A stretch of DNA of 64,000 nt from a bacterium. Its GTDB lineage: Bacteria > UBA8248. The stretch lies in the NCBI GenBank assembly GCA_965218885.1, contig OZ244713.1, positions 2,104,638-2,168,637 on the forward strand, read 5' to 3'. A model generated the notes under the pieces. It saw only the letters and a program-made list of their open reading frames with translations. It was not told where the DNA came from and did not search any database. Of this stretch, positions 13,586 to 36,137 are shown one piece after another; within the stretch, counting starts at the first letter, position 1; every line of letters begins with the position of its first letter. The position numbers and the translations under genes are program-made.

Positions 13586-13627
13586 CTCCTGTACGGCGAA
13601 ATATGAACCTCTCGGATTTTCCTGGTT

Positions 13628-15010
13628 TTATACTTTTTGAGTTTTCTCGAGGGCAACGAGTTCCTTGAGCTGCGAGAGATTGGGCTGCTCCTCGACACTC
13701 ATCACGAAATCGATGACGGCGTCCTGACTCCCCCGTACAAGCACGGGTGCCGTAAGATCACGGAATTTCTCGACGACCGCCTCCTCGGCGGGCCTGTTTT
13801 CCGGATCGCCCCGGCAGTATTCGACGCGCTCGTGGATGTGCTCGCCATTTTTCAGGTGAAACGTCACGTCGCACGGCTTCTTCTCGTGGTAGATGGCCGT
13901 GAGTTCCGGGTCGGCCTCCACCTGCGTGGCTTTGGCGAATCGCACCAGTTCCGGGTCGTATAAGGATTCGCCCTCGAGATCGGACGGCGAAACCTTGCCC
14001 CGCCTCAGCACAACCGCCATGGCGTATCCCATGTGAAAGATCATCTTGGCGGGCGGACCCGGCTCAAAATCCCAGCCGCACTGGATTTTCGTAATCTCAC
14101 CGGCCCGAATCGAGGTGCGCTCGACGTCCTCGAGCCTCAGGCCATGCTTTTGGCGGGCAAAGAGCGCGGCGTCGATGCCCGTCTGGCTGCTGTGGCAGGT
14201 GGGGTAGAGTTTGATGGAGGTGTCCATGAGCCAATACCGATCGCCCAATCCGTCGGTGAGAATCCCAGGGTTAGGGTCCCTGGTCGTCATGGAGAAAAAG
14301 CCCCCATCGACCGCTTCCAGGGGATCGGATGAGCCTCTGAAGCCTCCCCCGGCCAGAAGCGCCGAGACCACTCCGTTTCTGGCGGCCGTTCCCGCCGCCA
14401 GGTAAAGCTCCATCCCTGAGCCTTGCGTGAAGGCGAAATTACCCGAAGCCTGCCCCGCCGCCGCTGCGATGGCGTGGTGCAGGGTTTCGGACGAGTGATT
14501 CATGGCGCGCGATGCGGCGACGGCGGCCCCGAAAGAGCCGCACGTGCCCGTGGCCCGCCATCCCTTCAGGCGATGCTCGGCCATGTTGACCGCCATGCCT
14601 AAGCGCGCCGCCGTTTCATAACCCGCCGATATCGCTTCTAGAAACGTTTTTCCGTCCGCTCCCCCGAGTTCGCAGGCGGCCAGAGCCGCCGGGATCACGG
14701 CCACGCCGGGGTGAAGCTTGGACTTGCGATGCAGATCGTCAAAGATCAGGAGGTGGGAAAGGATGCCGTTCGTGAGAGCGGCGGTGGCCGGGTCGGCCCC
14801 GAAATCCCGGCCGATGATCATACAGGGCCCGTTTCCCGAAGCCGCTTCGGCGGCGCGCAGGTGAACGCCCGCCTCCTCGGTTCCCAAAGCCCCCAATGCG
14901 CAGCCTACGTGATCCAGCAGGCAGAACTTCAGAAAATCGGGTATCTCCCTGGGCGTATCCGCCAGGCGCAGCCCCGACATGAATCCGGCAAGTTGTTTCG
15001 AGCGATTCAT
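13628..15010 (-). CDS. MmgE/PrpD-family protein (2-methylcitrate dehydratase-like).
   Basis: 460 aa with the typical MmgE/PrpD N-domain and C-domain arrangement. It lies upstream of the PrpB-like gene. Confidence 0.7.
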   Translation of the reverse strand: MNRSKQLAGFMSGLRLADTPREIPDFLKFCLLDHVGCALGALGTEEAGVHLRAAEAASGNGPCMIIGRDFGADPATAALTNGILSHLLIFDDLHRKSKLHPGVAVIPAALAACELGGADGKTFLEAISAGYETAARLGMAVNMAEHRLKGWRATGTCGSFGAAVAASRAMNHSSETLHHAIAAAAGQASGNFAFTQGSGMELYLAAGTAARNGVVSALLAGGGFRGSSDPLEAVDGGFFSMTTRDPNPGILTDGLGDRYWLMDTSIKLYPTCHSSQTGIDAALFARQKHGLRLEDVERTSIRAGEITKIQCGWDFEPGPPAKMIFHMGYAMAVVLRRGKVSPSDLEGESLYDPELVRFAKATQVEADPELTAIYHEKKPCDVTFHLKNGEHIHERVEYCRGDPENRPAEEAVVEKFRDLTAPVLVRGSQDAVIDFVMSVEEQPNLSQLKELVALEKTQKV

Positions 15011-15093
15011 CGCATCCCTTGTGAGCGATGAAAAAGCGCAGCCGCGCCCGCACCCGAGCGGACGCGGCGCGCCGTTTCATCCGGCAAGTGAAA

Positions 15094-16137
15094 TTAGTTG
15101 CCGGTCAGTATCTTGAGCGAGTCCTTGGTCCATTTGTCTCGCATCTTGTCCATCTCGTTCGGGTCCCACCAGTGGTATTTGAGGTCGGAGAGCTTCACGC
15201 CCTCCACGCTGGTGAAATCCTTGCGCAGAGAAAACTTGCCCTTGTCGGAAACCACATTCTGGCCCTCGAGGCTCGAGAGCCATTCGATCAGCACTTTCGC
15301 GCCGGCGGGGTTGGGGCCGCCCTTGGTGATCGCCATCGGGGCGACGAGCAGTGCGCCGCCTTCTTTGGGGAACACCTCTTTGATGGGTGCGTTCTTGCCG
15401 CCCGGGTAGGGGCCGTCGCGGCGAACGAGCATGGAGAGATTCACGCCGAAGTGGCGCTCGCCCGATTTCACCTTGTTGTTCGTGGTGCCGTGGCTGCGCA
15501 CCATCATGGCGTTGTTGTCGCGCGTCTTGATAAACCAGTCGCGCCCGAAGAGCTTGTACATCGTGAACACGAAGTAATAGTGTCCGCCGCCGATCTTCGG
15601 ATCGCCGAAGCTGATCTTGCCCTTCCACTTGGGCTTGTGGAAGTCGAGCCAGCTGTTGGGGATGTCGCCGCCCTTGACGAGTTCGGGGTTGTAGGAAATG
15701 TATTGCAGCCAGGAGGTGTGATAGAAGTAGCCGCAATCCTTCGCCACGGCCCAGTCACGATAGTCCTTGTAGTTCGGGCTGCAATAACGGGTGAGCTGGT
15801 TTTTTCTGTTGAAGCTCAGGAACATTCCCGGATCGGCGGTGGAAATGGCGTCCATGCGCACCTTTCCGGCCCTCAACTCCTGCTTGTAGAGATTGGCGAT
15901 TTTGCCGGACTGGCTCCGGATCATCTTCGCCTTGATGCCGTACTTGGCGAATTTCTTGTTGAACGCCTTGTTCAGTTTTCGCTGGGCGGGCTTGAAGATG
16001 ATGTTGTACACGATGATCTGCCCGCCTTTGGTGCCGGCCGCCATTTTGAGCGTTTCCTTGTCGGCGCCGTGCGCGGCGCCCGCCGCCAGGCCCACCGACA
16101 GCACCAGGCTAATGATGAGGGTTGTCCACTTCTTCAT
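15094..16137 (-). CDS. ABC transporter periplasmic substrate-binding protein (Fe3+/polyamine/phosphonate family, bacterial extracellular SBP family 1).
   Basis: It has a signal peptide and an SBP fold. It is co-oriented with the ATPase and permease. Confidence 0.7.
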   Translation of the reverse strand: MKKWTTLIISLVLSVGLAAGAAHGADKETLKMAAGTKGGQIIVYNIIFKPAQRKLNKAFNKKFAKYGIKAKMIRSQSGKIANLYKQELRAGKVRMDAISTADPGMFLSFNRKNQLTRYCSPNYKDYRDWAVAKDCGYFYHTSWLQYISYNPELVKGGDIPNSWLDFHKPKWKGKISFGDPKIGGGHYYFVFTMYKLFGRDWFIKTRDNNAMMVRSHGTTNNKVKSGERHFGVNLSMLVRRDGPYPGGKNAPIKEVFPKEGGALLVAPMAITKGGPNPAGAKVLIEWLSSLEGQNVVSDKGKFSLRKDFTSVEGVKLSDLKYHWWDPNEMDKMRDKWTKDSLKILTGN

Positions 16138-16167
16138 CTTGCACCTCCTTTGAGATTGAGAAGACAG

Positions 16168-17250
16168 CTACGATTCAACGACGACGCATCGCTCCGGCTT
16201 GGCGGAGACGACCACTTCCTGACCCGTTTCGAACACCTGCGTTGGCTCCGCATGTATCTCGAGCGCCTTTCCGGAAACTTCGACCGCAAATATGGTCGAC
16301 TCCCCCAGGAAAGTAGAATGAATCACCCTGCCATTCCAATGATTCGGTGAATCGCCCCCATCTTGCGGCGCGGACAACCGGAGCGCCTCGGGACGAATCG
16401 AGACGTATACCTTCTCCTCATCCGGCATATGCTGGTCGCCGATGGAAATCTCGATTCCCTCATCCGAAAGAACGAGTGGTTCACCTTCCGCCCCCGCCTT
16501 CTTCGCACCCCCGAAAAGGTTCGTGGTTCCCATGAAACTGGCGACGAAGCGGTTCTGGGGCCGATTGTAGATTTCACGCGGGTCGGCGATCTGCTGCAGC
16601 ACCCCGTGATCCATGATGGCGATGCGATCAGAAAGCGCCATGGCTTCCGTCTGATCGTGGGTGACGTAGACGGCCGTGAAATTCAGCCTCTCCTGCAACT
16701 CCCGAATCTCGAGGCGCATCTGCACGCGCAGATTCGCGTCGAGGTTGCTCAGGGGCTCGTCGAACAACAGCAGGGAAGGTTCCGAAACCAGGCTCCGCGC
16801 GAGGGCTACGCGCTGCTGCTGGCCGCCGCTTATCTGGGTGGAGTAGCGGTGCTCCATGCCGTCGAGTTGAACGAGTTTGAGCGCGTTCATGACTTTTCCG
16901 GAAATGTCTCTGCCCGGCACCCCCCGCGCCCTCAATGGGTAGCCGACGTTCTCGAACAGCGTCATGTGCGGCCAAACGGCGTAGGATTGGAACACCATGC
17001 CCATTTCGCGCTTTTCGGGCAGAACGAAAACGCCGCCATCGATGTCGGTGACGACACCCTCGCCGAGAATGATGCGCCCGGCGGTCGGCCGTTCGAGGCC
17101 CGCGATGCACCGGAGCGTCGTCGTCTTGCCGCATCCGCTCGGGCCGAGGAGGGTCAGCATCTCCCCTTCTTCGACTTCCAGGTCGAGGGCATCCACCGCG
17201 CGCACTTCGTCGAAGTGTTTCGATAGATTCTCGATGGTCAGCGATGGCAA
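16168..17250 (-). CDS. ABC transporter ATP-binding protein (PotA/FbpC-like) with a C-terminal TOBE-like domain.
   Basis: It has Walker A GPSGCGKTT, the signature LSGGQQQRVALAR and Walker B LLLFDEP. Confidence 0.9.
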   Translation of the reverse strand: MPSLTIENLSKHFDEVRAVDALDLEVEEGEMLTLLGPSGCGKTTTLRCIAGLERPTAGRIILGEGVVTDIDGGVFVLPEKREMGMVFQSYAVWPHMTLFENVGYPLRARGVPGRDISGKVMNALKLVQLDGMEHRYSTQISGGQQQRVALARSLVSEPSLLLFDEPLSNLDANLRVQMRLEIRELQERLNFTAVYVTHDQTEAMALSDRIAIMDHGVLQQIADPREIYNRPQNRFVASFMGTTNLFGGAKKAGAEGEPLVLSDEGIEISIGDQHMPDEEKVYVSIRPEALRLSAPQDGGDSPNHWNGRVIHSTFLGESTIFAVEVSGKALEIHAEPTQVFETGQEVVVSAKPERCVVVES

Positions 17251-17265
17251 GGAGCCTCTCCTCCA

Positions 17266-18996
17266 CTATCGGTAGACGGGGGTCACATCCACCTTGAAAA
17301 CCCACTTGAACACGGAAATGACGACGAACATGATCGCCGTCAGAAGCAATGCGCCCGCGCACATGATATTCAACTCCCCGTCCGTCCACTGCTCGAAGAT
17401 CAAAACGGGCAGAACGCGCGTCTCGTGCGTAGTCAAAAGAACCGCCGTGGATATTTCGCGCAGGAAAATGATGAACAGCAAAATCCAGGTGGAATAAATG
17501 CCCGGACGCAAGAGGGGGAAGATGATCCGCCGGAAAGTGAGGAACCAGCTACCCCCGTGAACCCGGCTGCTCTCCTCGAGCTCTCCGTGCACCTGCACCA
17601 CGTTCGCCCCCAGGGCGCGGACGCCGTAGGGCATGAACAGCGTGAGGTACGCGACGACGAGAATCCAGACGGTCGCCCAAATCGGCCACTGGATATACGC
17701 CCATATCATCCCCAGGCCCATGACGATTCCGGGAATTCCCACCGGCATGACGCTCACCTGCTCAAGAATGCCGCGGCCGGGCGCCTTGCTCTTGTGGATG
17801 ATGTAGGCGATGACGGCCGTCATGAGCACGCTGATGGTCGCCCCGCCCGTGGAGAGGTACATCGAGCGGATGAAGGAGTCGAGCAAATCGGGGTTCGTGA
17901 AAAAGACCTCCCAGTTCTCCATCGTCCACAGCCCGAACTTGGGCGTGGCGTAGGGCTGCATGCTGACCTTGATGAGCACCAGCCCGGGCAGGATGACGGC
18001 GAGCAGCGCGTAGAGCGCCGTGAACAAATAGGCGAAGGGCGTCAGGCGGCCGAGAGAGTAGAGCTTGAGGCGAAACCCACGTCCGCTCACCAGGGCGTAG
18101 GAGCCTTTTCTGAGAATCCACCGCTGCAAGAGGATGCAAATGGCGGTGATGGCCATCAGCGTAAGGGCGGCGACGGTCGCCTCCCCGTACAGGGGCGGGG
18201 CGAAAACCGATTTTGCGAAAATATCCGTCGCCAGCACCACGATCCGCGCCGGAAAACCCAAAATGGCCGCCACGCCGAAGATCCCCATCGTAATGACGAA
18301 CACGAGCGTCATGCCCGAGAGGATGGCGGGAAGAATGACCGGAAACGTCACCCGCGTCAGGGTGCGGAACAAGCCCGCTCCCGACATGAACGAGGCCTCC
18401 TCATACGTCGTGTCCACCGAGCGGAGCGCCGCCGAGGTGAACAGAAACATATAAGGCGCCATGTATATGCCCGAGACCCAGATGATCCCCCAGACGGAGT
18501 ACACGTTGATGGGCAGTCCCGTCCAGAGTTTGACCATCCCGTTGGTGGGGTTGCCCAGAAGAATCCAGGCGAGCGCGCCGACGAAGGTGCTGGTGAAAAA
18601 CGGAAGAATGGCGGAAAGCTCCACCCAGCGCTTCCCGCGCATGTCGGTCTTCACGACCAGCCAGGCCAGGGGCGAGCCGATGATCGTCGCCAGGAAGACC
18701 ACGCCGAAACCGACCAGCAGGGTTCTGCCCACCGTGCGCCAGTAGCCCGGATTGCCGAAAACGACGCGGAAGTGCTCGAGCGTCCACACGCCTCCCTCCC
18801 CGGGAGGTTCGGACTGAAACGCGCCGTAGAACAGGTTGAGAACGGGAGCGAGGACGAACCACAGAACCAGCACCGTCATCACAACGACCGTGACGACCTC
18901 GAACGGCGTGACGCCCGCCGCGCGCAGCCTTCTGAGCGGCGCGTGGAAATAGCGCTCGAGCGCCCCTCCCGGGTTCTGAACAACTGTTTCGGCCAT
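17266..18996 (-). CDS. ABC transporter permease with two fused permease domains (FbpB/iron(III)-type).
   Basis: 576 aa and about 12 TM segments, with two EAA-like loops. Confidence 0.8.
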   Translation of the reverse strand: MAETVVQNPGGALERYFHAPLRRLRAAGVTPFEVVTVVVMTVLVLWFVLAPVLNLFYGAFQSEPPGEGGVWTLEHFRVVFGNPGYWRTVGRTLLVGFGVVFLATIIGSPLAWLVVKTDMRGKRWVELSAILPFFTSTFVGALAWILLGNPTNGMVKLWTGLPINVYSVWGIIWVSGIYMAPYMFLFTSAALRSVDTTYEEASFMSGAGLFRTLTRVTFPVILPAILSGMTLVFVITMGIFGVAAILGFPARIVVLATDIFAKSVFAPPLYGEATVAALTLMAITAICILLQRWILRKGSYALVSGRGFRLKLYSLGRLTPFAYLFTALYALLAVILPGLVLIKVSMQPYATPKFGLWTMENWEVFFTNPDLLDSFIRSMYLSTGGATISVLMTAVIAYIIHKSKAPGRGILEQVSVMPVGIPGIVMGLGMIWAYIQWPIWATVWILVVAYLTLFMPYGVRALGANVVQVHGELEESSRVHGGSWFLTFRRIIFPLLRPGIYSTWILLFIIFLREISTAVLLTTHETRVLPVLIFEQWTDGELNIMCAGALLLTAIMFVVISVFKWVFKVDVTPVYR

Positions 18997-19051
18997 AAAA
19001 CCTCGCCTCTCGCCCTACCCTCGGCCTATGAGAGCAGCCGCGCCGGCGGCG

Positions 19052-20314
19052 CTACCCCATGACGCGGCTGATAATCCGCTCGACTTCCGCGTCGGTCGCC
19101 AAGCTCTTCTCCTCGATCAACGCCCGAACGCCCGAGATGATCCGGTCCATCTGGGCCTCGTCCGCCTTTTTGCCCATCTGGTTCACCTTGGCGTCCAGGG
19201 GGCTGTCGGAGCCCTTTTGAAGCGCCGTGGGTCCATACACGATGCGCCTGCCGGCGCCGACGGTCTCCGAGCGCAGGTTCTCCCACAAAAACCAGTCCCC
19301 GCGCAGAATGCCGGGAATGTGGAGCCCGCCGTAGCTGAACATGTTGTGCCCCACCACCGGGGCGTTCTCGGCGACGGGAATCTCATAGAGTTCCGAGACG
19401 AGGCGGCTGAGTTCGGTGATTTTCTTCAGGTCGATTCCCGTCCGATACCCGAAGAAATACTCCAGCCCCACGGCGATCTGCTCGAAGCCCGCGTTGCCGC
19501 AGCGATGCCCCGTCCTGTTGATGCACACGTCGCACCCCATGGCGCCCGCCCTGATGCCCTCGAACGTGATGGCCGTGGCCAGGCCGAAATCGTCATGCGC
19601 ATGAACGGACACCTCTATCTTGTCATCGCTCGCCACACGCACGGCATGGACCACCATCGCCATCGTCTGCGGGAGGAACCACCCGCGCGGATCGTAGCAG
19701 ACCCACCTGTCCACGCCGGCGGCGACGGCGCGGCGAATCGTCTCGGGAATCAGGTCCGCGCGTGGATGATCCGTGCCGAAACCCACCTTGAGGCCCTTTT
19801 CCTTCGCGTAGGCGATGCACTCCTCCATCCGCACGAGAAACGACTCGCCCCGGAGCGTCGGGTGAAGCGCTTCTGTCATCGTGTAGCCCTGCATCCCTAC
19901 GAAATTCACCATGTCGGCCCCGCAACCGGCGATGCCGTCGATGTCGGATTTCCAGTTCGGGAGCCAGCAGCGCGCGTGCATGCCGCAAATGATTTTGGAG
20001 CCGCGCTTTTTGAGTTCACTCACGAATTTCTGATCATCGGGCAGCGAGCCGTAACCCACCTCGGCCTCCTGCACGCCCGCCTCATCGAGCAACTCGGAGA
20101 TCCGCAGCTTCTTCTCCACGCTCGCGTAAACGCCCGGCGTATTCGCGCCCGAGCGCAGCGTGTCGTCGCGCAAGACGATGCGCCGGGGCTGCGCGTTCAC
20201 GGCGTCAGGCACGGCCAGGGAGTTCATCGGGCTGGTTATCCAGCGGTGCTGCTCATCCAGCCGCGCATCGAGGTTCATGGCGTCCTGATCGACCCAGGAG
20301 GGAATCTCTTCCAT
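19052..20314 (-). CDS. DRE-TIM metallolyase (pyruvate carboxyltransferase/HMG-CoA-lyase-like domain protein).
   Basis: RDDTLRSG at the N-terminus resembles the RDGxQ motif. The HxH metal site (VHAHDDFG) is typical of HMGL-like/IPMS-fold enzymes. Confidence 0.55.
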   Translation of the reverse strand: MEEIPSWVDQDAMNLDARLDEQHRWITSPMNSLAVPDAVNAQPRRIVLRDDTLRSGANTPGVYASVEKKLRISELLDEAGVQEAEVGYGSLPDDQKFVSELKKRGSKIICGMHARCWLPNWKSDIDGIAGCGADMVNFVGMQGYTMTEALHPTLRGESFLVRMEECIAYAKEKGLKVGFGTDHPRADLIPETIRRAVAAGVDRWVCYDPRGWFLPQTMAMVVHAVRVASDDKIEVSVHAHDDFGLATAITFEGIRAGAMGCDVCINRTGHRCGNAGFEQIAVGLEYFFGYRTGIDLKKITELSRLVSELYEIPVAENAPVVGHNMFSYGGLHIPGILRGDWFLWENLRSETVGAGRRIVYGPTALQKGSDSPLDAKVNQMGKKADEAQMDRIISGVRALIEEKSLATDAEVERIISRVMG

Positions 20315-20905
20315 GGCGTCTCCAAATCCGGTTCAGTTACGCAAACCTCTCCGAGGGAAGCCTTCCGACACCTTCATCGGAAGCAGTAGAAATTCCCCGC
20401 AAAGATGAAGAGGTGAATTGTGATTGACGAATTGATTACAACACGATTCCCCATGGGCGCGCAATCCAAACCAGCCTCCGGAACAACTACTGAAAGACAA
20501 TCCTCTCCACCCTCTTTCACCAAGCGCAAGAAAAGGCGGGAGAACGAACCCTGGTTCGGATTGGCGCGGCGTCTGAGCAGGATGGGTTGCGCGACTTCGC
20601 TAAGGCCTTTGCCCAAAAGCGCAAAACTCGTGTAAAACTTCTTCTCGAAAACCCCGGATCGACATATCCGCACCATCTTGACGCTGCGCCCAGGAAGCGG
20701 AATGCGCGTGTGGTTTTCCCCTGAAGTTGTAGCGAAAAACCCGGGCGTTGCATGAGTTGGTGCGTTCGCCTCCAAAAACGTCCCGGCGGTGAACGCGCGC
20801 TTGCGAAACGCCTCGCCTTGTACGAAGAACAGAAAACGATTTTGACGGATGAGTGACGCGCCTTTCCGTCCCCTAAATCCACCCAAGTGAAGGAGAGAGA
20901 ATTTC

Positions 20906-22690: not shown

Positions 22691-22692
22691 CC

Positions 22693-24816
22693 ATGGCCTC
22701 GAGAAAGAAAGAAAAATATCGCGTCGGCATCGACATCGGCGGCACGTTCACCGACGTCGTCCTCATGGGAGAGGAAGAGGGGCTCATCGCCTCCTACAAG
22801 GTGGACACGACGCCGGTAAATCTGGAGGGCTGTTTCGTGGGCGGACTCCTGAGGGCGACGAAAGGCATATCCCCAGAAGAGGTGGGGCGCATCCTCCACG
22901 CCACTACGGTGGCCACCAACACCGTTTTGGAATCAAAAGGCGCGCGCACCGCCCTGGTCACCACCCGGGGGTTTCGGGACATTCTCGAGATCGCCCGCCA
23001 GCGCAGGCCGAGTCTGTACAACTTACAGGAGGTGAAGGCCAAGCCCCTCATCCCCCGGCGGCTCAGCTTCGAGGTGAACGAGCGGCTGGGATGGAACGGA
23101 GACGTCGTCACCAAACTGACGAAAGCGGAACTCGACCGGCTAGCGGATGCGCTCGATGCCTCGGGCGCCGAATCGGTGGTGATCGCGCTGTTGTTCTCCT
23201 ACGTGAATCCAGCCCACGAGCTTCGGGTGAAAAAACATCTCCTCCGCGCGCTTCCGGGCCGCCACATCGTGGCCTCCTCGGACATCACGCCCGAATTCCG
23301 CGAGTTCGAGCGAACCAGCACGGCAGCGCTCGTCGGCTACCTGAAACCCATATTCGCGCGCTACACGGAAAGGCTGCACGATGAGGTATCCAGGCTCGGC
23401 CACCGCCCCGAAAAGCTGCTCATCATGAACTCCGCCGGCGGGCTGATGTCGCCGGCATCTGCGCGCGAACGCCCCCACACGCTCATCGAATCGGGCCCCG
23501 CGGCGGGCGTCATCGCCGCCACCGTCCTCGCGCGGGAGATCGAAGAACCCGACATCATCTCCTTCGACATGGGCGGCACCACCGCCAAGACGAGCCTGAT
23601 CGAGGGCGGCGTCTACAAGACCACCACCGAATACGAAATCGGGATGGGCATGCACCAGTCCCTGGCGGTCCGTTTTACGGGATATCCCGTCAAGACGCCC
23701 GTCATCGACCTGACCGAATGCGGCGCGGGCGGCGGCTCCATCGCTTCGGTGGACGGCGTGGGCGTTCTGAAAGTCGGCCCCCACAGCGCGGGTTCGGAAC
23801 CAGGCCCGGTCTGCTACGGGCGCGGGGGCGGGGAACCCACCGTCACGGACGCCAACCTCGTTCTGGGCCGCCTGAACCCGGATTATTTCGTCGGCGGAGA
23901 ATCGCGTCTCCATCTTGATTACGCGGAAAAGGCCATCGAAGAGAAGATAGCCGAACCACTCGGGCTATCCACCATGGAAGCCGCCGCGGGTATCATCGAA
24001 GTCGTGAACGCCCACATGGTTCGCACCCTGCGCGTGATCTCGGTCGCCAGAGGCTATGACCCGCGCGATTTCGCGCTCATCAGCTTTGGCGGCGCGGGCC
24101 CCCTGCACGCGGCCGACCTGGCGAACGAACTCGGCATACCGCGCATCATCATCCCCGAGGCGCCGGGCGTTTTCTCCGCCCTCGGCCTGCTCTGGGCGGA
24201 CATGAGAGCGGACTTCACGGCCACGACCCGACTGAGCCTCGACAAAGAAAACGCGGAGCGAATCGCCGCTCTCATGGCCGAGCTCGAAGCGGAGGCGGAC
24301 GAATGGCTCAAAGGCGAAAAGGCGCCCCGGACGAAGCGCATGCTCGTGCGCTCGGCCGACCTGCGCTACCCGCTTCAAAACTATGAGATCAACGTGCCGC
24401 TGCCCGGCGGAAAGATAGGCCCCGCGTGGCTCGGCAAGGCGCGAAGGGCGTTTCACGACGCGCATCTGCGCCAGTACAGCTATTGCGATGAGGCGGAAAG
24501 CGTTCAGGCCGTGACCCTTCGCGTCTCGGCCATCGGCCTCACGGATCGCATTCGCCCGAAAAAAATCGCCGCTGGCTCCCAAAGTCCCAAGGCGGCGTTC
24601 AAGGGCGAGCGGGGGGTGCATTTCCAGGAGGCCGGAAATTTCATCGACTGCCCCATCTATGAACGGGAGTTTCTGAAAGGCGGAAACCGGGTTCAAGGCC
24701 CTGCGGTCATCGAACAACCCGATTCCACGGTGCTCATCCCGCCCTCGTTTCGCGTGGAGGTGGATTCTCTGGGCAGATTCGTTATGACGCGCAAGAAAAC
24801 GAGCCGGACGAAATGA
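22693..24816 (+). CDS. Hydantoinase A/oxoprolinase-family protein (HyuA-like ATPase). This is pair 1.
   Basis: The N-terminus YRVGIDIGGTFTDVVLM is the hallmark ASKHA-fold motif. Confidence 0.85.
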   Translation: MASRKKEKYRVGIDIGGTFTDVVLMGEEEGLIASYKVDTTPVNLEGCFVGGLLRATKGISPEEVGRILHATTVATNTVLESKGARTALVTTRGFRDILEIARQRRPSLYNLQEVKAKPLIPRRLSFEVNERLGWNGDVVTKLTKAELDRLADALDASGAESVVIALLFSYVNPAHELRVKKHLLRALPGRHIVASSDITPEFREFERTSTAALVGYLKPIFARYTERLHDEVSRLGHRPEKLLIMNSAGGLMSPASARERPHTLIESGPAAGVIAATVLAREIEEPDIISFDMGGTTAKTSLIEGGVYKTTTEYEIGMGMHQSLAVRFTGYPVKTPVIDLTECGAGGGSIASVDGVGVLKVGPHSAGSEPGPVCYGRGGGEPTVTDANLVLGRLNPDYFVGGESRLHLDYAEKAIEEKIAEPLGLSTMEAAAGIIEVVNAHMVRTLRVISVARGYDPRDFALISFGGAGPLHAADLANELGIPRIIIPEAPGVFSALGLLWADMRADFTATTRLSLDKENAERIAALMAELEAEADEWLKGEKAPRTKRMLVRSADLRYPLQNYEINVPLPGGKIGPAWLGKARRAFHDAHLRQYSYCDEAESVQAVTLRVSAIGLTDRIRPKKIAAGSQSPKAAFKGERGVHFQEAGNFIDCPIYEREFLKGGNRVQGPAVIEQPDSTVLIPPSFRVEVDSLGRFVMTRKKTSRTK

Positions 24817-24835
24817 CGACGCTAGCCGCGCGCCT

Positions 24836-26554
24836 TCATTCGCCGCGCAGTTTCATCGTCGAGGCTTCATCGAGCGCACCCGCTTCATCGACCGCGACCC
24901 TGTAGACCTCCCGCGCGCGCTGGGGAGAGATTTTCCCGTCCCGCACGTCGAGAGCCACCAGAGCCGGTTCACGCTCCTGCGGCGGACCGTGCCCTCCCGC
25001 TCCGGGAGTGACGTGGACATACACCGTTCCTTCGGGTACGTGAATCGTCTCGTTTCCCTTGAGACGCTTCTCGTTCGGGGTGTCGGGGTCGAGAACATTC
25101 TGGCAGATGGTGCCGTCGTGACCACCGTGAAGCCCCCACGGGGCGTGTTCCGCCCTTCCTGAGCGAACCTGGAGCACTCCGCCCTCGGGCGCGAGAATGC
25201 GAATCTTGCGCCGCACGCCCAGACCGCCCCGAAACTTCCCCGCGCCCTCCGAATCGGGCTCGTAGCCGTATTCCTCCACCAATACCGGATAGGTGCTCTC
25301 CACCATCTCGACGGGCGAGTTCGCCATGTTGGCGGCGACGTTCGCCACGCCGTCGATGCCGTCCATGTGAGGATGACCGCCCCAAGCGCCGACGAGCGCT
25401 TCGCTGAGTATGCTGGGCGCGCCTTTTTTCGTAGCGCCCACCGTATAGCGCGTGGTGCCGCCCTCGCTCGCCGCCCTTACCAGATGCGGAGCCGCCTGCC
25501 CCAGGGCGCCGAAAACGCAATCCGCCACCCGGTAGCCCACCACGCCCATCGCGCCCACGGCCGCCGGGAAGCTGGGATGAACGAGCGTTCCCTCGGGCGC
25601 GACGAGTCGCAGCGGGCGGAAAAAACCCGCCGAGTTGGGAATCTCCTGGTTCATGATGGAGCGCACCGCGAGATAAAACGCCGAGCGCGAATACGCGAGA
25701 GGAGAGTTGATGGCGGTGGGCGCCTGTAAATCCGTGCCCGTGAAATCGGCGGTCAAATCATCCCCGTCTATCGTGACGGTGACGAAGAGGCGCTGCGGCC
25801 CGCCATCCATGCCGTCGTTATCGAGCCAATCCTCAAAAGAATAGACGCCGTCGGGCATCGCGGCGATTTCCGCGCGCGCCATCTTCTCGCTGCGGTCGAG
25901 CAAGCCCGCCATGGCGGCGCGCATCACCTCGTTGCCGTAGCGCCGCGCCAGGGCGGAAAAACGCCTCTCCCCCAGGCGGCAGGCCGTGAGCTGGGCTTCC
26001 AAGTCGCCGAAAAAATCTCTCGGAAGCCGGGAGTTTTTCTCGATCAAGGCCATGAGCGTCGCATCGCGCTTCCCGCCGCGCTCCAGCAAGAGGGGCGGGA
26101 TCCTGAGGCCCTCGGCGAAAATCTCCCGGCTGTTCACCGGAACGCTTCCCGGCACGTGGCCGCCGACGTCCGTCATGTGGGCCATGGCGACCGCATGGCC
26201 CATCAATTCATCGGCGCAGAATATCGGCGTGACGAGCACGATGTTGGGCAGGTGCATACCGCCCTCGTAGGGGTCGTTCATGATGAGGGCGTCGCCCGGG
26301 CGGAGGTTTCCCTCGAACCGTTTGAGCATGGCGGCCACAGCGGTCGGCAATGCGCCCAGGTGAATCGCCATTCCCACGCCCTGAACCACCATCTCCCCTC
26401 GCGGGTTGCAAAGCGCGACGGTGAAATCGAGCAGGTCGCGGACCAGGGGGGAATAGGCCGTACGAACGATGACGGCGGCCATTTCATCGGCCACGCTGAA
26501 CAATCCGCGTTCCACGACGGAGGTCGTCACAGGGTCCAGACGCTTTTCAAGCAT
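24836..26554 (-). CDS. Hydantoinase B/oxoprolinase-family protein (HyuB-like). This is pair 2, transcribed divergently.
   Basis: It is a paralog of 20906-22690. The start is chosen at MLEKRLDPV (26554), which has a GGAGAA RBS. Confidence 0.75.
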   Translation of the reverse strand: MLEKRLDPVTTSVVERGLFSVADEMAAVIVRTAYSPLVRDLLDFTVALCNPRGEMVVQGVGMAIHLGALPTAVAAMLKRFEGNLRPGDALIMNDPYEGGMHLPNIVLVTPIFCADELMGHAVAMAHMTDVGGHVPGSVPVNSREIFAEGLRIPPLLLERGGKRDATLMALIEKNSRLPRDFFGDLEAQLTACRLGERRFSALARRYGNEVMRAAMAGLLDRSEKMARAEIAAMPDGVYSFEDWLDNDGMDGGPQRLFVTVTIDGDDLTADFTGTDLQAPTAINSPLAYSRSAFYLAVRSIMNQEIPNSAGFFRPLRLVAPEGTLVHPSFPAAVGAMGVVGYRVADCVFGALGQAAPHLVRAASEGGTTRYTVGATKKGAPSILSEALVGAWGGHPHMDGIDGVANVAANMANSPVEMVESTYPVLVEEYGYEPDSEGAGKFRGGLGVRRKIRILAPEGGVLQVRSGRAEHAPWGLHGGHDGTICQNVLDPDTPNEKRLKGNETIHVPEGTVYVHVTPGAGGHGPPQEREPALVALDVRDGKISPQRAREVYRVAVDEAGALDEASTMKLRGE

Positions 26555-26662
26555 GCGTTCTCCGTGCCAAGATGGTTCAAATATCAAAGTAGAGCGGGAA
26601 GCTATCATAACACCACGGTGGGACGCCATTCCCGGGCGCTTCCGCCTCCAGAAATCGAGATC

Positions 26663-28759
26663 ATGAGCGGACAATCTTTTCGAATCGGGGTGGACATCGG
26701 AGGTACGTTCACCGACATCGTTGTAATCGACGAGCAGGGATGCGTTCACACGGCCAAAGCCATCTCCACGACGGACGCCTACGAGCGAGGCATCCTGGAA
26801 ACGCTTGAAAATCTGCTGGCGGAGAACCGCTTATCCACCGGAGACTGCGCCGAGGTGGCCCATGGAACCACCGTGGCCACCAACGCCATCATCGAGCGCG
26901 AAGGCGCGCGGACCGGCCTCATCACGACCCGGGGTTTTCGGGACGTCCTCGAGCTGAGGCGAATCCGCATCCCCACCCAGTATGACTTGAACTGGACGAA
27001 ACCTCCGCCTTTGGTGGAGCGGTTCCTCCGCGCGGAAGTGCGTGAGCGAATGAGCCACACGGGCGAGGCGCTCGAAGCCCTGGACGCGGATTCGGCCCGA
27101 AGCGCCATCGCCGAACTCACCCGCCAGGGGGTGGAATCCATCGCGGTCTGTCTGTTGAACGCCTATGCGAATCCCGGGCATGAGCGCGCCGTGCTCGACA
27201 TCATCCGCGCTGAAAGCCCGGGCGTCGACGTCTCCATCTCCTCGGACATCCTGCCCGAAATGAGGGAATACGAACGCACCAGCACGACGGTCATCAACGC
27301 TTTCGTGATGCCGGTGGTCAAGCAGTATCTCGAATCGCTCGAAGCGGGCCTGCGCGCCCGGGAGTTCACGGCCCCGCTGCTGATCATGCAGTCAAACGGC
27401 GGAATCATGACAGCGGAAGTGGCCCGCGCGCAGCCCATTCACATCATCGAATCAGGACCCGCCGCAGGGGTCGTCGCGGCGCATCACCTCGCCAGGCGCA
27501 TTAACGTGAACAACGCCATCACGATGGACATCGGAGGCACCACGGCCAAGGCGAGCCTTATCGAAAACGGCGAGACGACATACTCCCCCGAATACGAGGT
27601 CGGCGGCGGATTCTCCCAGTCGAATCGCCTCGCGCGCGGCGGGGGCTACCTTCTGCGCGCCCCCACCCTCGATATCGCGGAAATCGGCGCGGGCGGCGGC
27701 AGCATCGTCTGGATCGACAAGGGAGGCGCTCTGCAGGTGGGACCCAAGAGCGCGGGCGCGAATCCCGGTCCCGCATGTTATGGACTCGGCGGCGAGGAAC
27801 CCACCCTGACGGATAGCTGCCTGCTCTTGGGCTATCTCGATTCTGAGGGCATCGCGGGCGGTTCGGTGAAGCTCGATTCATCCGCCGCCGAGCGCGCCCT
27901 CGGCGAGAAAGTGGCGAAGCCTCTGGGTCTCGAGATCACGACGCTCGCCCACGGAGTCGTTCAGATCGCGACGTCCAACATGACGCGGGCGATTCGTTCG
28001 GTCTCCACCGAGCGCGGCAAGGACCCTCGGGATTTCAGCCTGTTCGCCTTCGGCGGAAACGGGGGGCTGTTCGCGGCCTCCGTGGCGCGAGAACTGGAAC
28101 TCCCCCAAGTGGTCATTCCCCCTTCTTCGGGTATTTTCTCCGCCTTCGGGCTGCTTTATTCCGACCTGGAGCACCACTTCACCCAAACCCTTTTGGGAAG
28201 AACGGACGAACTCGACCCGGAGTCGGTCGAGGCCTATTGGGCGCATCTCGAGGTCGAGGCGCGCGATTTGCTCTCCAGGGAGGGATACCCGGGCGAGAGA
28301 TGCCGCCTCCGCAGGCGCGGGGAGCTCCGCTACTACGGGCAAACGCATGAGCTGTCGATTCCCTGGCCCGAGAACGGCTCGGCCGGCGATGCGCTCGCGC
28401 AAGCCTCCGAGGCCTTTGAAGATGAACACGAGCGCACCTACGGACACCGGGGAGGCGACGGACTCGTGGAACTGGTGAACCTCCACCTGGTCGCCACGGG
28501 CGTTCCCGAAACGCCGCGTTTCCCCGACTCGCTCTTGTTCCCGGAAATCCTGAAAACCAAGACGGGCGAGCGGCAAGCCTATTTCGGCGCCGAGATGGGC
28601 TGGGCCGCCGCGAAACTCATCAACCGCTCCATGCTCGATGAAACCATGACAAAAGGGCCTTTCATCTTACAGGAGTTCGACGCCACCATACTCGTTCCCC
28701 CCGATTTCACCGTCGCGAGGGATGCGTTCGACAACATCATCATGCGGCTTGAACGATGA
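26663..28759 (+). CDS. Hydantoinase A/oxoprolinase-family protein (HyuA-like). This is pair 2.
   Basis: The N-terminus FRIGVDIGGTFTDIVVIDEQG is the HyuA motif. It is a paralog of 22693-24816. Confidence 0.85.
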   Translation: MSGQSFRIGVDIGGTFTDIVVIDEQGCVHTAKAISTTDAYERGILETLENLLAENRLSTGDCAEVAHGTTVATNAIIEREGARTGLITTRGFRDVLELRRIRIPTQYDLNWTKPPPLVERFLRAEVRERMSHTGEALEALDADSARSAIAELTRQGVESIAVCLLNAYANPGHERAVLDIIRAESPGVDVSISSDILPEMREYERTSTTVINAFVMPVVKQYLESLEAGLRAREFTAPLLIMQSNGGIMTAEVARAQPIHIIESGPAAGVVAAHHLARRINVNNAITMDIGGTTAKASLIENGETTYSPEYEVGGGFSQSNRLARGGGYLLRAPTLDIAEIGAGGGSIVWIDKGGALQVGPKSAGANPGPACYGLGGEEPTLTDSCLLLGYLDSEGIAGGSVKLDSSAAERALGEKVAKPLGLEITTLAHGVVQIATSNMTRAIRSVSTERGKDPRDFSLFAFGGNGGLFAASVARELELPQVVIPPSSGIFSAFGLLYSDLEHHFTQTLLGRTDELDPESVEAYWAHLEVEARDLLSREGYPGERCRLRRRGELRYYGQTHELSIPWPENGSAGDALAQASEAFEDEHERTYGHRGGDGLVELVNLHLVATGVPETPRFPDSLLFPEILKTKTGERQAYFGAEMGWAAAKLINRSMLDETMTKGPFILQEFDATILVPPDFTVARDAFDNIIMRLER

Positions 28760-36133: not shown

Positions 36134-36137
36134 TACC

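What the first reader, a model, noticed from the sequence alone, without database searches (positions are those of the whole stretch)
15094..28759. Two paralogous HyuB-HyuA pairs next to an HMGL-like DRE-TIM enzyme and an ABC importer: a candidate ATP-dependent carboxylase or lactamase locus
Hydantoinase/oxoprolinase-family proteins form ATP-dependent heteromeric enzymes such as 5-oxoprolinase, acetone/acetophenone carboxylase and caprolactamase. Two HyuB/HyuA sets lie in a row, with pair 2 divergently arranged and sharing a 108-bp promoter region. This is reminiscent of the multi-subunit acetophenone-carboxylase type. The adjacent pyruvate-carboxyltransferase/HMG-CoA-lyase-like gene could process a beta-keto or carboxylated product, and the Fe3+/polyamine-type ABC importer could supply the substrate. 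The substrate is unknown.
Basis: partly seen in the sequence, partly recalled or inferred. Interest (0 to 1): 0.55.

Follow-up and report, generated by a model that had tools for sequence, protein, structure and literature searches.

The report
Orphan ATP-dependent ring-opening catabolic gene cluster
A ten-gene block recurs in many uncultured bacteria and probably imports and breaks down an unidentified nitrogen-containing ring compound, using two ATP-driven ring-opening enzymes and three further enzymes whose usual catalytic residues have been swapped; the compound and the exact chemistry remain unknown.

Summary
Two HyuB/HyuA pairs, an HMGL-like gene and a binding-protein ABC importer lie at the stated coordinates, including the 108-bp divergent spacer of pair 2.

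The unit is larger than reported. The HMGL-like operon continues into a MmgE/PrpD-family gene (13628-15010) and an isocitrate-lyase/PEP-mutase-family gene (12674-13585).

The block is conserved. HyuB1A1, HMGL-like and the importer are adjacent in about 20 metagenomic or MAG loci with 65-98% identical proteins. Pair 2, PrpD-like and ICL-like accompany them in most long loci.

The pairs are old paralogs (36-40% identity). Where both are present, each has 1:1 orthologs.

Both pairs resemble ATP-dependent lactam/hydantoin hydrolases, not acetone or acetophenone carboxylases. There is no gamma subunit, the beta subunits are short, and carboxylase scores are low.

Four enzymes carry conserved substitutions at positions treated as invariant in their families:
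- HyuB2: metal ligand Asp to Asn.
- HMGL-like: RDGEQ to RSGxN.
- PrpD-like: His to Arg, and the Lys/His pair lost.
- ICL-like: catalytic Cys to Ala.

Best reading: catabolism of an imported anionic N-heterocycle to a substituted di- or tricarboxylate, then C-C cleavage. The substrate is unknown. It is a new variant of a known kind, of moderate interest.

The parts
12674..13585 (-). Isocitrate-lyase/PEP-mutase-superfamily protein (303 aa), last gene of the minus-strand operon. Non-canonical: A84-D-G-G-A-G where relatives have DxDTG, and E114-D-Q-F-Y-P-K-R-A122-H-Y-H where lyases have K(K/R)CGH.
   Evidence: Pfam PEP_mutase 1e-31. The best PDB matches are methylisocitrate lyase, oxaloacetate acetylhydrolase and petal death protein at about 100 bits, with the catalytic Cys aligned to Ala. 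The motifs are invariant in 24 subfamily members. AF2 mean pLDDT is 74, and the fold matches DMML, MICL, OAH and PA4872 about equally.
13628..15010 (-). MmgE/PrpD-family protein (460 aa). Closest solved relative is iminodisuccinate epimerase. Non-canonical: G-W-R152 where relatives have GWH, and G-S-G-M-E-L-Y-L-A-A-G (197-207) where relatives have ..TMTKPLHxG.
   Evidence: Pfam MmgE_PrpD_N 2.6e-58 and MmgE_PrpD_C 6.4e-32. PDB 2hp3 scores 114 bits, against 41-44 bits for PrpD itself. The substitutions are conserved in the orthologs of L001, L002, L090 and L091.
15041..15068 (-). Strong terminator-like hairpin (11-bp stem, 10 G-C pairs, T-rich tail) between the SBP gene and the PrpD-like gene. 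Possibly an attenuator or mRNA-stabilising element.
   Evidence: Its function was not tested.
15094..16137 (-). Periplasmic solute-binding protein (347 aa) of the FbpA/AfuA/PhnS-like group.
   Evidence: Pfam SBP_bac_6, SBP_bac_11 and SBP_bac_1. NCBIfam PhnS2 scores 60 bits against a cut-off of 393. PDB matches are weak, to Fe3+-type, AfuA (4r72) and pyridoxal-5-phosphate-binding proteins.
16168..17250 (-). ABC transporter ATPase with a C-terminal TOBE domain (360 aa).
   Evidence: Pfam ABC_tran 8e-32 and TOBE_2 2e-13. It is below every NCBIfam equivalog cut-off.
17266..18996 (-). Fused two-domain ABC permease (576 aa).
   Evidence: Two BPD_transp_1 stretches. NCBIfam PhnU2 scores 162 bits against a cut-off of 593.
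19052..20314 (-). HMGL-like DRE-TIM protein (420 aa), first gene of the minus-strand operon. It has a homocitrate/isopropylmalate/citramalate-synthase-type fold without a regulatory domain. Non-canonical: R49-D-D-T-L-R54-S55-G-A-N58 where synthases have DTTLRDGEQ, and G-H270-R-C272-G-N where they have GERAGN. The HxH motif (H238, H240) is kept.
   Evidence: Pfam HMGL-like 4e-33. NCBIfam IPMS/HCS scores 215 bits at best against cut-offs of 463 or more. PDB 6ktq alignment. The motifs are conserved in family members down to 39% identity; the 34% member (P0087) deviates. AF2 pLDDT is 92.6, with best folds 6e1j and 6ktq at TM about 0.8.
20315..20905 (.). 591-bp divergent intergenic region between the HMGL-like gene and hyuB1. 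Presumed promoter region. It is neither conserved in length nor coding.
   Evidence: No ORF with coding signal and no Pfam hit. No Rfam family. The corresponding spacer is 137 bp in L002 and 86 bp in L091.
20906..22690 (+). HyuB1 (594 aa), beta subunit of pair 1, with the full metal tetrad D65/H125/D128/H150.
   Evidence: Pfam Hydantoinase_B 1e-173. Motifs. PDB 7hk5 scores 279 bits, 6yra_B 195, Apc beta 105 and Acx alpha 44.
22693..24816 (+). HyuA1 (707 aa), ATP-binding alpha subunit of pair 1. Its start lies 2 nt after the hyuB1 stop.
   Evidence: Pfam Hydant_A_N, Hydantoinase_A and Hydant_A_C. The ATP motifs DIGGTFTD, DMGGT and GSEPGP are present. PDB 7hk5 scores 499 bits, 6yra_A 386, Apc 301 and 172, and Acx 235.
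24836..26554 (-). HyuB2 (572 aa), beta subunit of pair 2, with the tetrad D43/H101/N104/H126. Asn replaces the Asp equivalent to CapB Asp102.
   Evidence: Pfam Hydantoinase_B 1e-168. Alignment to CapB. HLPN occurs in 25 of 25 aligned sequences at 65% identity or more. HLPD (HLQD in one) occurs in all 18 next-nearest relatives, and HLAD in HyuB1.
26555..26662 (.). 108-bp divergent spacer shared by hyuB2 and hyuA2.
   Evidence: No palindrome, and only a 9-nt word shared with the other spacer.
26663..28759 (+). HyuA2 (698 aa), ATP-binding alpha subunit of pair 2.
   Evidence: Pfam Hydant_A_N, Hydantoinase_A and Hydant_A_C. The motifs DIGGTFTD, DIGGT and GANPGP are present. PDB 7hk5 scores 437 bits, 6yra_A 398, Apc 274 and 194, and Acx 238.

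Best explanation
Window 12674-28759 is one conserved catabolic gene island for an imported, probably anionic, nitrogen-containing ring compound: a gamma- or delta-lactam, a hydantoin or a cyclic imide that carries carboxylate groups.

Shown:
- The genes, their family memberships and their conserved linkage.
- The old paralogy of the two pairs, each with 1:1 orthologs.
- The hydrolase-type rather than carboxylase-type anatomy of both pairs.
- The conserved active-site substitutions.

Inferred pathway:
1. The periplasmic binding protein, the fused permease and the ATPase import the compound.
2. Each HyuA/HyuB pair is an ATP-dependent amidohydrolase of the caprolactamase, N-methylhydantoinase or 5-oxoprolinase kind. 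The alpha subunit uses ATP to activate the ring amide, and the beta subunit hydrolyses it at its metal site.
3. The two pairs are not redundant. They act on two ring amide bonds, on two isomers, or on two successive intermediates. Pair 2 has a remodelled metal site (Asn104).
4. The ring-opened product is an amino- or carbamoyl-substituted di- or tricarboxylate with a succinate/malate-like backbone.
5. The PrpD-family enzyme acts by proton abstraction next to a carboxylate, giving epimerisation or beta-elimination.
6. The homocitrate/citramalate-synthase-like DRE-TIM enzyme and the ICL/PEP-mutase-family enzyme break or rearrange C-C bonds to give central metabolites such as pyruvate or 2-oxoacids plus short acids.

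The exact substrate and the reaction of each non-canonical enzyme are not established.
For: Linkage:
- HyuB1A1 lies divergently next to HMGL-like and the permease in every related locus that has flanking sequence.
- Both pairs plus PrpD-like occur in L001, L002/3, L090, L091 and L093/94. L004 has both pairs but only a distant, split PrpD-family gene, and L102 ends before that position. ICL-like follows in L001, L002/3, L004 and L091.
- Pair-1 and pair-2 orthologs are 61-82% identical across loci, while the pairs are 36-40% identical to each other.

Hydrolase type:
- The best PDB relatives are N-methylhydantoinase 7hk5 and caprolactamase 6yra. Apc and Acx score far lower.
- The only NCBIfam hits besides Apc are CapA and CapB.
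- ATP motifs are intact in both alphas.
- Betas are 572 and 594 aa. There is no gamma subunit.

Import: the SBP has a signal-like N-terminus, and its weak PDB relatives bind anionic ligands.

Backbone inference:
- All characterised MmgE/PrpD enzymes act on C2/C3-substituted 1,4-dicarboxylates (PMC12290011).
- The HMGL-like protein folds like 2-alkylmalate synthases.
- The ICL-like protein's relatives cleave substituted malates or isocitrates.

Context:
- More distant HMGL-like family members again sit with PrpD-family genes. Their partners are a single Hyu pair and the same type of ABC system (L085), glutamate mutase (L086), or TctABC and an amidohydrolase (L087).
- TctC or TctCBA, AtuA/DUF4387 and genes resembling the itaconate/methylsuccinate cluster flank several loci.

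Precedent: Ti plasmid pTiEU6 places hyuA/hyuB, a pot-type ABC system and mmgE in its succinamopine-lactam catabolic region (PMC6733357).
Against: - No experiment bears on this cluster, and no cultured organism carrying it was found. Plasmid hits are at most 38% identical.
- Every downstream enzyme lacks residues considered essential in its family. The reaction types assigned by homology may therefore be wrong.
- HyuB2 lacks an Asp whose Ala mutant is inactive in caprolactamase. Pair 2 may not be a hydrolase at all.
- No aminotransferase, deaminase or amidase is encoded in the window cluster to dispose of the nitrogen.
- Pair 2 is not adjacent in L096 or L098.
- The ICL-like subfamily also occurs outside the cluster.
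- A strong hairpin after the SBP gene may uncouple PrpD-like and ICL-like expression.
- The SBP ligand class is a weak inference.
Confidence: 0.55

Rival explanations
1. The four Hyu subunits form one acetophenone- or acetone-carboxylase-like ATP-dependent carboxylase that carboxylates an imported ketone. The HMGL-like enzyme then processes the beta-keto acid.
For: The family includes such carboxylases, and Apc uses two alpha-type subunits. Caprolactamase itself needs bicarbonate (PMC8453981). The altered metal site of HyuB2 could reflect non-hydrolytic chemistry. Weak NCBIfam hits to ApcA, ApcC and ApcD exist.
Against: - There is no gamma or epsilon subunit gene. The spacers hold no coding ORF and are not conserved.
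- Betas are 572 and 594 aa, against 684 aa for Apc beta and 776 aa for Acx alpha. The Acx alignment covers only about 150-210 residues.
- Apc scores are 100-308 bits against cut-offs of 1250-1500.
- There are two complete alpha-beta pairs rather than alpha, alpha' and beta.
- A related cluster has a single pair.
- In the NJ tree both betas lie within the hydrolase-type radiation when rooted on Apc beta.
Confidence: 0.07
2. One or both pairs are ordinary 5-oxoprolinases that recycle pyroglutamate to glutamate, and their linkage to the other genes has no pathway meaning.
For: 5-Oxoprolinase is a member of this family. Databases name some relatives 5-oxoprolinase (P0230; the 6yra_A label). The HMGL-like family sits next to glutamate mutase in L086, which links it to glutamate metabolism.
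Against: - The linkage of pair 1 to the HMGL-like gene and the importer is invariant over about 20 loci at 65-98% identity.
- Two conserved paralogous pairs are unnecessary for one housekeeping reaction.
That is unlike a housekeeping enzyme.
- HyuB2 has a non-canonical metal site.
Confidence: 0.1
3. The cluster is biosynthetic, for example a phosphonate pathway in which a PEP mutase is pulled by a phosphonomethylmalate-synthase-like HMGL enzyme, as FrbD and FrbC do in FR-900098 biosynthesis (from my own knowledge).
For: A PEP_mutase-family gene and a homocitrate-synthase-like gene share one operon. The ABC components score best against the PhnS2, PhnT2 and PhnU2 models.
Against: - The PEP-mutase signature EDKxxxxxNS (from my own knowledge) is absent. 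The protein has EDQFYPKRAHYH.
- The PhnS2/T2/U2 scores are far below their cut-offs.
- The transporter is a binding-protein-dependent importer.
- There are no tailoring or export genes.
- The HMGL-like protein lacks the canonical RDGEQ active-site motif.
- IclR and GntR regulators and catabolic-type neighbours occur in related loci.
Confidence: 0.03
4. The cluster is a hydantoin route. An ATP-dependent hydantoinase opens a 5-substituted hydantoin, such as hydantoin-5-acetate or hydantoin-5-propionate, to an N-carbamoyl amino-dicarboxylate. The IDS-epimerase-like PrpD protein epimerises it before further breakdown.
For: The best PDB match for all four subunits is an N-methylhydantoinase. The closest solved relative of the PrpD-like protein is an epimerase of an N-substituted aspartate. 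An M20 peptidase-family gene, a family that includes N-carbamoyl-amino-acid amidohydrolases, lies next to the cluster in L096.
Against: No carbamoylase or M20 gene is present in the window or in most loci. Identity to the N-methylhydantoinase is only about 31% for the betas. This is a special case of the best explanation rather than a true alternative.
Confidence: 0.12

Closest known systems
Caprolactamase CapAB of Pseudomonas jessenii (PDB 6YRA) and the P. putida lactamase OplBA
   Same: It is a two-subunit ATP-dependent ring-amide hydrolase with the same domain architecture and subunit sizes. The ATP motifs DxGGTxxD, DxGGT and GxxPGP are present in both alphas. The D-H-D-H metal tetrad is present in HyuB1.
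   Different: - Beta identity is only about 29-33%.
- Scores are 245-537 bits against NCBIfam equivalog cut-offs of 1000.
- HyuB2 has Asn at the Asp102 position, where CapB D102A is inactive.
- Two pairs are present instead of one.
- The partners are HMGL-like, PrpD-like and ICL-like enzymes, not an aminotransferase pathway.
N-methylhydantoinase (fused 1288-aa protein, PDB 7HK5/9H03)
   Same: It is the best-scoring solved relative of all four subunits, at 279-499 bits.
   Different: - It is a fused polypeptide, whereas the subunits here are separate.
- Beta identity is about 31%.
- No creatinine-pathway genes are nearby.
Acetophenone carboxylase (Apc, PDB 5L9W) and acetone carboxylase (Acx, PDB 5M45/5SVB)
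   Same: They belong to the same superfamily, and Apc uses more than one alpha-type subunit.
   Different: There is no gamma or epsilon subunit. The betas are short. Similarity is much lower: 44-131 bits for the betas and 172-301 bits for the alphas.
Opine-lactam catabolic region of Ti plasmid pTiEU6 (succinamopine and succinopine lactams)
   Same: It combines hyuA/hyuB, a pot-type ABC importer and an mmgE gene in a region assigned to the catabolism of lactams of N-(dicarboxyalkyl) amino acids (PMC6733357).
   Different: No HMGL-like or ICL-like gene is reported there, and the functions there are also only inferred. No plasmid protein exceeds 38% identity to the window's HMGL-like, PrpD-like or ICL-like proteins.
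Claisen-condensing DRE-TIM enzymes (homocitrate, isopropylmalate, citramalate and methylthioalkylmalate synthases)
   Same: The fold matches at TM about 0.8 to 6e1j and 6ktq. The HxH metal motif is kept. The size is that of a NifV-type enzyme without a regulatory domain.
   Different: The RDGEQ motif is RSG(A/G/S)N and GERAGN is GHRCGN in family members down to 39% identity. Identity is 21-25%. It is below all NCBIfam cut-offs.
MmgE/PrpD family (IDS epimerase, methylsuccinate isomerase, cis-aconitate decarboxylase, 2-methylcitrate dehydratase) and ICL/PEP-mutase lyases (methylisocitrate lyase, 2,3-dimethylmalate lyase, petal death protein, PA4872)
   Same: The domain architectures and folds match. 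Both families act on substituted succinate/malate-type acids.
   Different: The PrpD-like protein has Arg152 for the family His and has lost the Lys/His of the TMTKPLH motif. The ICL-like protein lacks the catalytic Cys and one Asp of DxDTG.

Membership tests
Hydantoinase/oxoprolinase ATP-dependent hydrolase/carboxylase superfamily | HyuA architecture (Hydant_A_N + Hydantoinase_A + Hydant_A_C) paired with a HyuB (Hydantoinase_B) subunit | tested here: met
   E-values of 1e-168 and 1e-173 for the two HyuB, and 7e-97 and 1e-98 for the two HyuA.
Hydantoinase/oxoprolinase ATP-dependent hydrolase/carboxylase superfamily | ATP-binding motifs in the alpha subunit (DxGGTxxD, DxGGT, GxxPGP; PMC8453981) | tested here: met
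   HyuA1 has DIGGTFTD, DMGGT and GSEPGP. HyuA2 has DIGGTFTD, DIGGT and GANPGP.
Hydantoinase/oxoprolinase ATP-dependent hydrolase/carboxylase superfamily | [quoted passage not shown] | tested here: not met
   It is met in HyuB1 (D65, H125, D128, H150). It is not met in HyuB2, which has D43, H101, N104, H126. Asn occurs in 25 of 25 aligned sequences at 65% identity or more.
Caprolactamase (CapA/CapB equivalogs) | Score at or above the NCBIfam equivalog cut-off (1000 bits) | tested here: not met
   CapA model: 531 and 537 bits. CapB model: 245 and 296 bits.
Acetophenone carboxylase | Subunit set alpha, alpha', beta (684 aa), gamma and epsilon, with NCBIfam ApcA/C/D cut-offs of 1250-1500 bits | tested here: not met
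   Scores are 100-308 bits. There is no gamma or epsilon ORF. Betas are 572 and 594 aa.
Acetone carboxylase | Long HyuB-type subunit (776 aa) plus a small gamma subunit | tested here: not met
   Similarity to Acx alpha is 44-62 bits over about 150-210 residues only. No gamma gene is present.
5-Oxoprolinase (OplAB / OPLAH) | Orthology to biochemically characterised 5-oxoprolinases, and activity on 5-oxo-L-proline | not testable with these tools
   No reference sequence of a characterised 5-oxoprolinase could be loaded. Only the label of 6yra_A and some database names are available.
Claisen-condensing DRE-TIM synthases (IPMS/HCS/CMS) | TIM-barrel catalytic domain plus subdomains with the synthase fold | tested here: met
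   The AF2 model has pLDDT 92.6. Foldseek best hits are 6e1j, 6ktq, 4ov4 and 3rmj at E 1e-29 to 1e-22 and TM 0.65-0.8.
Claisen-condensing DRE-TIM synthases (IPMS/HCS/CMS) | Active-site motif (D/E)TTLR(D/E)GEQ, with the acidic metal ligand after Arg, together with HxH | tested here: not met
   HxH is present (H238, H240). The motif is RDDTLRSG(A/G/S)N in family members down to 39% identity; the 34% member (P0087) deviates. NCBIfam scores are 215 bits or less against cut-offs of 463 or more.
MmgE/PrpD family | N- and C-terminal MmgE/PrpD domains | tested here: met
   (2.6e-58 and 6.4e-32).
MmgE/PrpD family | Conserved set of His/Lys residues that bind the 1,4-dicarboxylate (PMC12290011) | tested here: not met
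   H86, H100 and K267 are kept. The GWH histidine is Arg152, and the Lys and His of TMTKPLH are absent. This holds in five orthologs. The positions were mapped by pairwise HMMER alignment only.
Isocitrate-lyase-type C-C lyases (ICL, MICL, DMML, PDP) | K(K/R)CGH gating-loop motif with the catalytic Cys | tested here: not met
   The motif is KRAHYH, with Cys replaced by Ala122. It is invariant in 24 members. ICL Cys191Ser is inactive (PMC7609661).
PEP mutase | EDKxxxxxNS motif (from my own knowledge of the family) | tested here: not met
   The sequence is EDQFYPKRAHYH.

The most novel reading that the evidence does not exclude
The cluster encodes a pathway not yet described for a widespread environmental N-heterocyclic carboxylate. 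Candidates include substituted pyrrolidone or pyroglutamate carboxylates, opine-like lactams, and tetrapyrrole-derived maleimide or lactam fragments.

In this reading the Asn-variant pair 2 carries out a non-hydrolytic or otherwise new ATP-dependent step. The remodelled HMGL-like, PrpD-like and ICL-like enzymes each catalyse a reaction new to their superfamilies. That would make four new enzyme functions in one operon set.
Probability: 0.2. Interest if true: 0.75.

Novelty: new variant of a known kind. Interest (0 to 1): 0.55.

Why it matters
ATP-dependent lactamases and hydantoinases are few and poorly understood. They are of practical interest for nylon-monomer and lactam biocatalysis.

This cluster offers two new, evolutionarily stable members. 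One of them breaks the supposedly invariant metal tetrad.

It also offers three partner enzymes whose conserved substitutions mark unexplored branches of the DRE-TIM, MmgE/PrpD and ICL/PEP-mutase superfamilies. Finding the substrate would assign functions to several protein families that are common in soil and groundwater metagenomes. It would also define a new route by which bacteria mineralise stable ring amides.

Tried and rejected
- Exact-sequence look-up of the window's HMGL-like protein: not on record.
- Genome-collection scan with the family alignment. It was swamped by the generic HxHxDxG pattern. Only L005 (73% identity, a Betaproteobacteria MAG) and a 33% hit were relevant.
- Plasmid searches with the HMGL-like, PrpD-like and ICL-like proteins. 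Nothing exceeded 38% identity, so no cultured or annotated carrier was found. The contexts of H31 and H42 were uninformative.
- Phosphonate idea (PEP mutase plus an FrbC-like synthase). Rejected because the PEP-mutase motif is absent and the Phn model scores are far below their cut-offs.
- Search for a gamma-subunit gene or regulatory RNA in the spacers. No coding ORF, no Pfam hit, no Rfam family, no shared operator-like repeat, and no sigma-70-like site were found.
- Literature searches for the gene combination. Only the pTiEU6 paper appeared. One search was wasted because the prefix 'AtuA' matched Portuguese words. The PA4872 paper could not be read.
- Foldseek of the ICL-like model did not discriminate between lyase, hydrolase, decarboxylase and mutase relatives.
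- The taxonomic origin of the window was not settled. The nearest named relatives are MAGs of Burkholderiales or Betaproteobacteria, Acetobacteraceae, Xanthobacteraceae and Nitrospinota.

Full report

| Gene | Coordinates | Strand |
|---|---|---|
| Binding protein (SBP) | 15094-16137 | - |
| ABC ATPase with TOBE domain | 16168-17250 | - |
| Fused two-domain permease | 17266-18996 | - |
| HMGL-like | 19052-20314 | - |
| HyuB1 | 20906-22690 | + |
| HyuA1 | 22693-24816 | + |
| HyuB2 | 24836-26554 | - |
| HyuA2 | 26663-28759 | + |

- The pair-2 genes diverge from a spacer of exactly 108 bp.
- hyuB1 has a good Shine-Dalgarno sequence, and hyuA1 starts 2 nt after its stop.
- The pairs are paralogs: A1/A2 40% and B1/B2 36% identity.

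**The unit is larger than reported.** Downstream of the binding-protein gene, on the same strand, lie two more genes:
- a MmgE/PrpD-family gene at 13628-15010;
- an isocitrate-lyase/PEP-mutase-family gene at 12674-13585.

A strong hairpin with a T-rich tail (15068-15041) separates them from the transporter genes. It may modulate read-through.

**Conservation.** Homologs of the HMGL-like protein fall into a sharply delimited family:
- about 47 clusters at 64% identity or more;
- a second group at 39-47%;
- ordinary isopropylmalate synthases at about 30%.

Contig look-ups and tblastn mapping show the same gene set in L001, L002/3, L004, L005, L090, L091, L092 and L093/94, and in twelve further metagenome loci.
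- HyuB1-HyuA1 lies divergently next to HMGL-like and the permease in every locus that has flanking sequence.
- Pair 2 and PrpD-like accompany them in most long loci. ICL-like follows in L001, L002/3, L004 and L091.
- Each pair has 1:1 orthologs at 61-82% identity, against 36-40% between the pairs. The duplication is therefore old and both copies are maintained.

Variations are informative:
- Pair 2 is co-directional in L002, L091 and L102.
- In L096 its place is taken by AtuA, an M20 peptidase and TctC.
- In L098 its place is taken by TctCBA plus a third, unrelated Hyu pair.
- IclR, GntR and AtuA+DUF4387 recur.
- Genes with the composition of the itaconate/methylsuccinate cluster flank L004 and L090 (PMC12290011).

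More distant members of the HMGL-like family again sit with PrpD-family genes:
- with one Hyu pair and the same type of ABC system in L085;
- with glutamate mutase in L086;
- with TctABC and an amidohydrolase in L087.

**Hydrolase or carboxylase.** Scores for the four subunits against solved structures:

| Reference | Bits |
|---|---|
| Fused N-methylhydantoinase (7hk5) | 279-499 |
| Caprolactamase (6yra) | 195-398 |
| Acetophenone carboxylase | 105-301 |
| Acetone carboxylase | 44-238 |

- NCBIfam gives only CapA/CapB (245-537 bits, cut-off 1000) and Apc models (100-308 bits, cut-offs 1250-1500).
- The betas are 572 and 594 aa, like lactamase betas and unlike the 684-776-aa carboxylase subunits.
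- No gamma or epsilon gene exists. The only free DNA is two spacers that carry no coding ORF, Pfam or Rfam hit. The larger one is not conserved in length between loci.
- Both alphas keep the three ATP motifs defined for CapA.
- A rough neighbour-joining tree was built from window and locus sequences plus PDB sequences recovered from the alignments. It places HyuB1 and HyuB2 in separate uncharacterised clades within the hydrolase-type radiation. Both are at most 33% identical to CapB, to the N-methylhydantoinase and to Apc beta.

The lactamase/hydantoinase reading is therefore favoured. The Apc-like multi-subunit reading is not supported.

**Conserved active-site departures.**
1. *HyuB2.* CapB binds its metal through Asp41, His99, Asp102 and His124. 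The last three are described as fully conserved, and D102A is inactive (PMC8453981). HyuB1 keeps the tetrad. HyuB2 has Asn104 at the Asp102 position. Asn occurs in all 25 aligned sequences at 65% identity or more. All 18 next-nearest relatives (44-49% identity) have Asp.
2. *HMGL-like.* It has RDDTLRSG(A/G/S)N where the synthases have DTTLRDGEQ, and GHRCGN where they have GERAGN. HxH is retained. These motifs hold in family members down to 39% identity. Its AF2 model (pLDDT 92.6) nevertheless matches methylthioalkylmalate, homocitrate, isopropylmalate and citramalate synthases best.
3. *PrpD-like.* Its closest solved relative is iminodisuccinate epimerase. It has Arg152 where the family has the GWH histidine, and it lacks the Lys and His of the TMTKPLH motif. 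This holds in all five orthologs examined.
4. *ICL-like.* It has KRAHYH instead of K(K/R)CGH, so the catalytic Cys is Ala122. It has ADGGAG instead of DxDTG. Both are invariant in 24 subfamily members. The Cys is the catalytic acid of ICL and MICL (PMC7609661).

**Mechanism proposed.** The binding-protein-dependent system imports the substrate. Its weak structural relatives bind anionic ligands.

The two Hyu enzymes open ring amide bonds at the expense of ATP. Two facts argue for two distinct steps, isomers or substrates: both pairs are kept as distinct orthogroups, and pair 2 has a different metal site.

All three downstream families act on substituted succinate/malate-type acids:
- MmgE/PrpD substrates share a C2/C3-substituted 1,4-dicarboxylate.
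- The synthase relatives make 2-alkylmalates.
- The ICL relatives cleave substituted malates or isocitrates.

The ring-opened product is therefore most likely an amino- or carbamoyl-substituted di- or tricarboxylate. It would be isomerised or eliminated and then cleaved to central metabolites.

Tricarboxylate-transporter genes in related loci fit this picture. So does the link between the AtuA family (DUF1446) and methylaspartate-pathway clusters (PMC4682846). The pTiEU6 opine-lactam region, which combines hyuAB, a pot-type ABC system and mmgE, is a precedent.

All of this is inference. The non-canonical active sites mean that the actual reactions may differ from those of the characterised relatives. 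No nitrogen-removing enzyme is encoded in the window cluster.

**Comparison and novelty.** The locus works like a caprolactamase- or hydantoinase-initiated catabolic pathway. It fails the membership tests for caprolactamase, Apc and Acx, and the tests for canonical IPMS/HCS, PrpD-type enzymes and ICL-type lyases.

No paper in the library describes the gene combination. No plasmid-borne homolog exceeds 38% identity. It is best filed as a new variant of a known kind. Interest is moderate: a well-delimited orphan pathway with four testable enzyme oddities, but no anomaly that overturns current understanding.

**Side observations.** The 3' end of the operon is duplicated 3.6 kb to the left in a decayed, internally deleted form. 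The left end of the window looks like an island or rearrangement zone beside tRNA-Phe.

Noticed in passing
window 7812-9773 compared with 11438-15031: A second, decayed copy of the 3' end of the operon. 7812-9271 is 95.6% identical to 11438-12893, and 9244-9773 is 93.2% identical to 14502-15031. The equivalent of 12894-14501 is deleted. ORF 9051-9821(-) is an in-frame fusion of PrpD-like residues 1-178 (89% amino-acid identity) with ICL-like residues 239-303 (100%).
   Followed up: yes
window 1-8000: GC content falls to about 50%, against about 60% elsewhere. The stretch holds tRNA-Phe (6666-6741), an IS1595-family transposase (287-1114), a truncated Proton_antipo_M fragment (3253-3849) and a HAD hydrolase (4864-5490). 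It looks like an island or rearrangement zone at a tRNA gene.
   Followed up: partly
window 10177-11385 (+): A gene for a caspase-like Peptidase_C14 protein with a C-terminal peptidoglycan-binding domain and a signal-like N-terminus sits between the two copies of the duplicated segment.
   Followed up: no
window 11438-12673: About 1.2 kb downstream of the ICL-like gene has no convincing gene but is kept at 95.6% identity in the duplicate. It includes a 77-aa ORF (12342-12575, -) that resembles, by eye only, a fragment of a MetE-type methyltransferase. Possibly pseudogene debris.
   Followed up: no
window 28760-32000: A segment of lower GC (54-57%) holds a 472-aa lipoprotein-like protein with an HELGHAIG zinc-protease motif (29385-30803; a weak Peptidase_M10 hit below the cut-off). 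The 98%-identical relatives L093 and L094 carry different genes beyond hyuA2, so this flank is strain-specific.
   Followed up: partly
window 32085-41254: A redox gene group: dihaem cytochrome c (32085-32825), molybdopterin oxidoreductase (32810-35461), three 4Fe-4S proteins (35483-36133, 36138-37661, 37779-38357) and a xanthine-dehydrogenase-family molybdenum subunit (38954-41254). A molybdopterin oxidoreductase also lies beyond hyuA2 in L093 and L094, though farther away.
   Followed up: no
window 41374-50738: Two MMPL/sterol-sensing-type transporters (41374-43668 and 48450-50738). With them are an MpaB/Lcp-like oxygenase (43799-44965), a 418-aa protein without a Pfam hit (45903-47159) and a LolA-like/DUF1329 protein (47159-47977).
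   Followed up: no
window 50973-58760: A branched-chain-type ABC importer (two ATPases, a Peripla_BP_6 binding protein and two permeases) lies next to an Amidohydro_3 protein (56251-57519) and an AllG-family protein (57510-58760). This may be another nitrogen-compound catabolic unit.
   Followed up: no
L086 8033-11266; L004 17278-21344; L090 17493-21263: The HMGL-like family member of a Chloroflexi MAG lies directly after glutamate-mutase S and E genes. In L004 and L090 the cluster abuts acyl-CoA dehydrogenase and family-III CoA-transferase genes. L004 also has a second PrpD-family gene and a MaoC-like gene, which matches the composition of the itaconate/methylsuccinate cluster.
   Followed up: partly
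L107 7467-10897; L088 6513-9879: The unusually well conserved ICL-like subfamily (mean column identity 79%, invariant KRAHYHKYV) also occurs outside the cluster in a recurring MFS transporter / zinc alcohol dehydrogenase / ICL-like arrangement. It is therefore an accessory module rather than specific to the cluster.
   Followed up: partly
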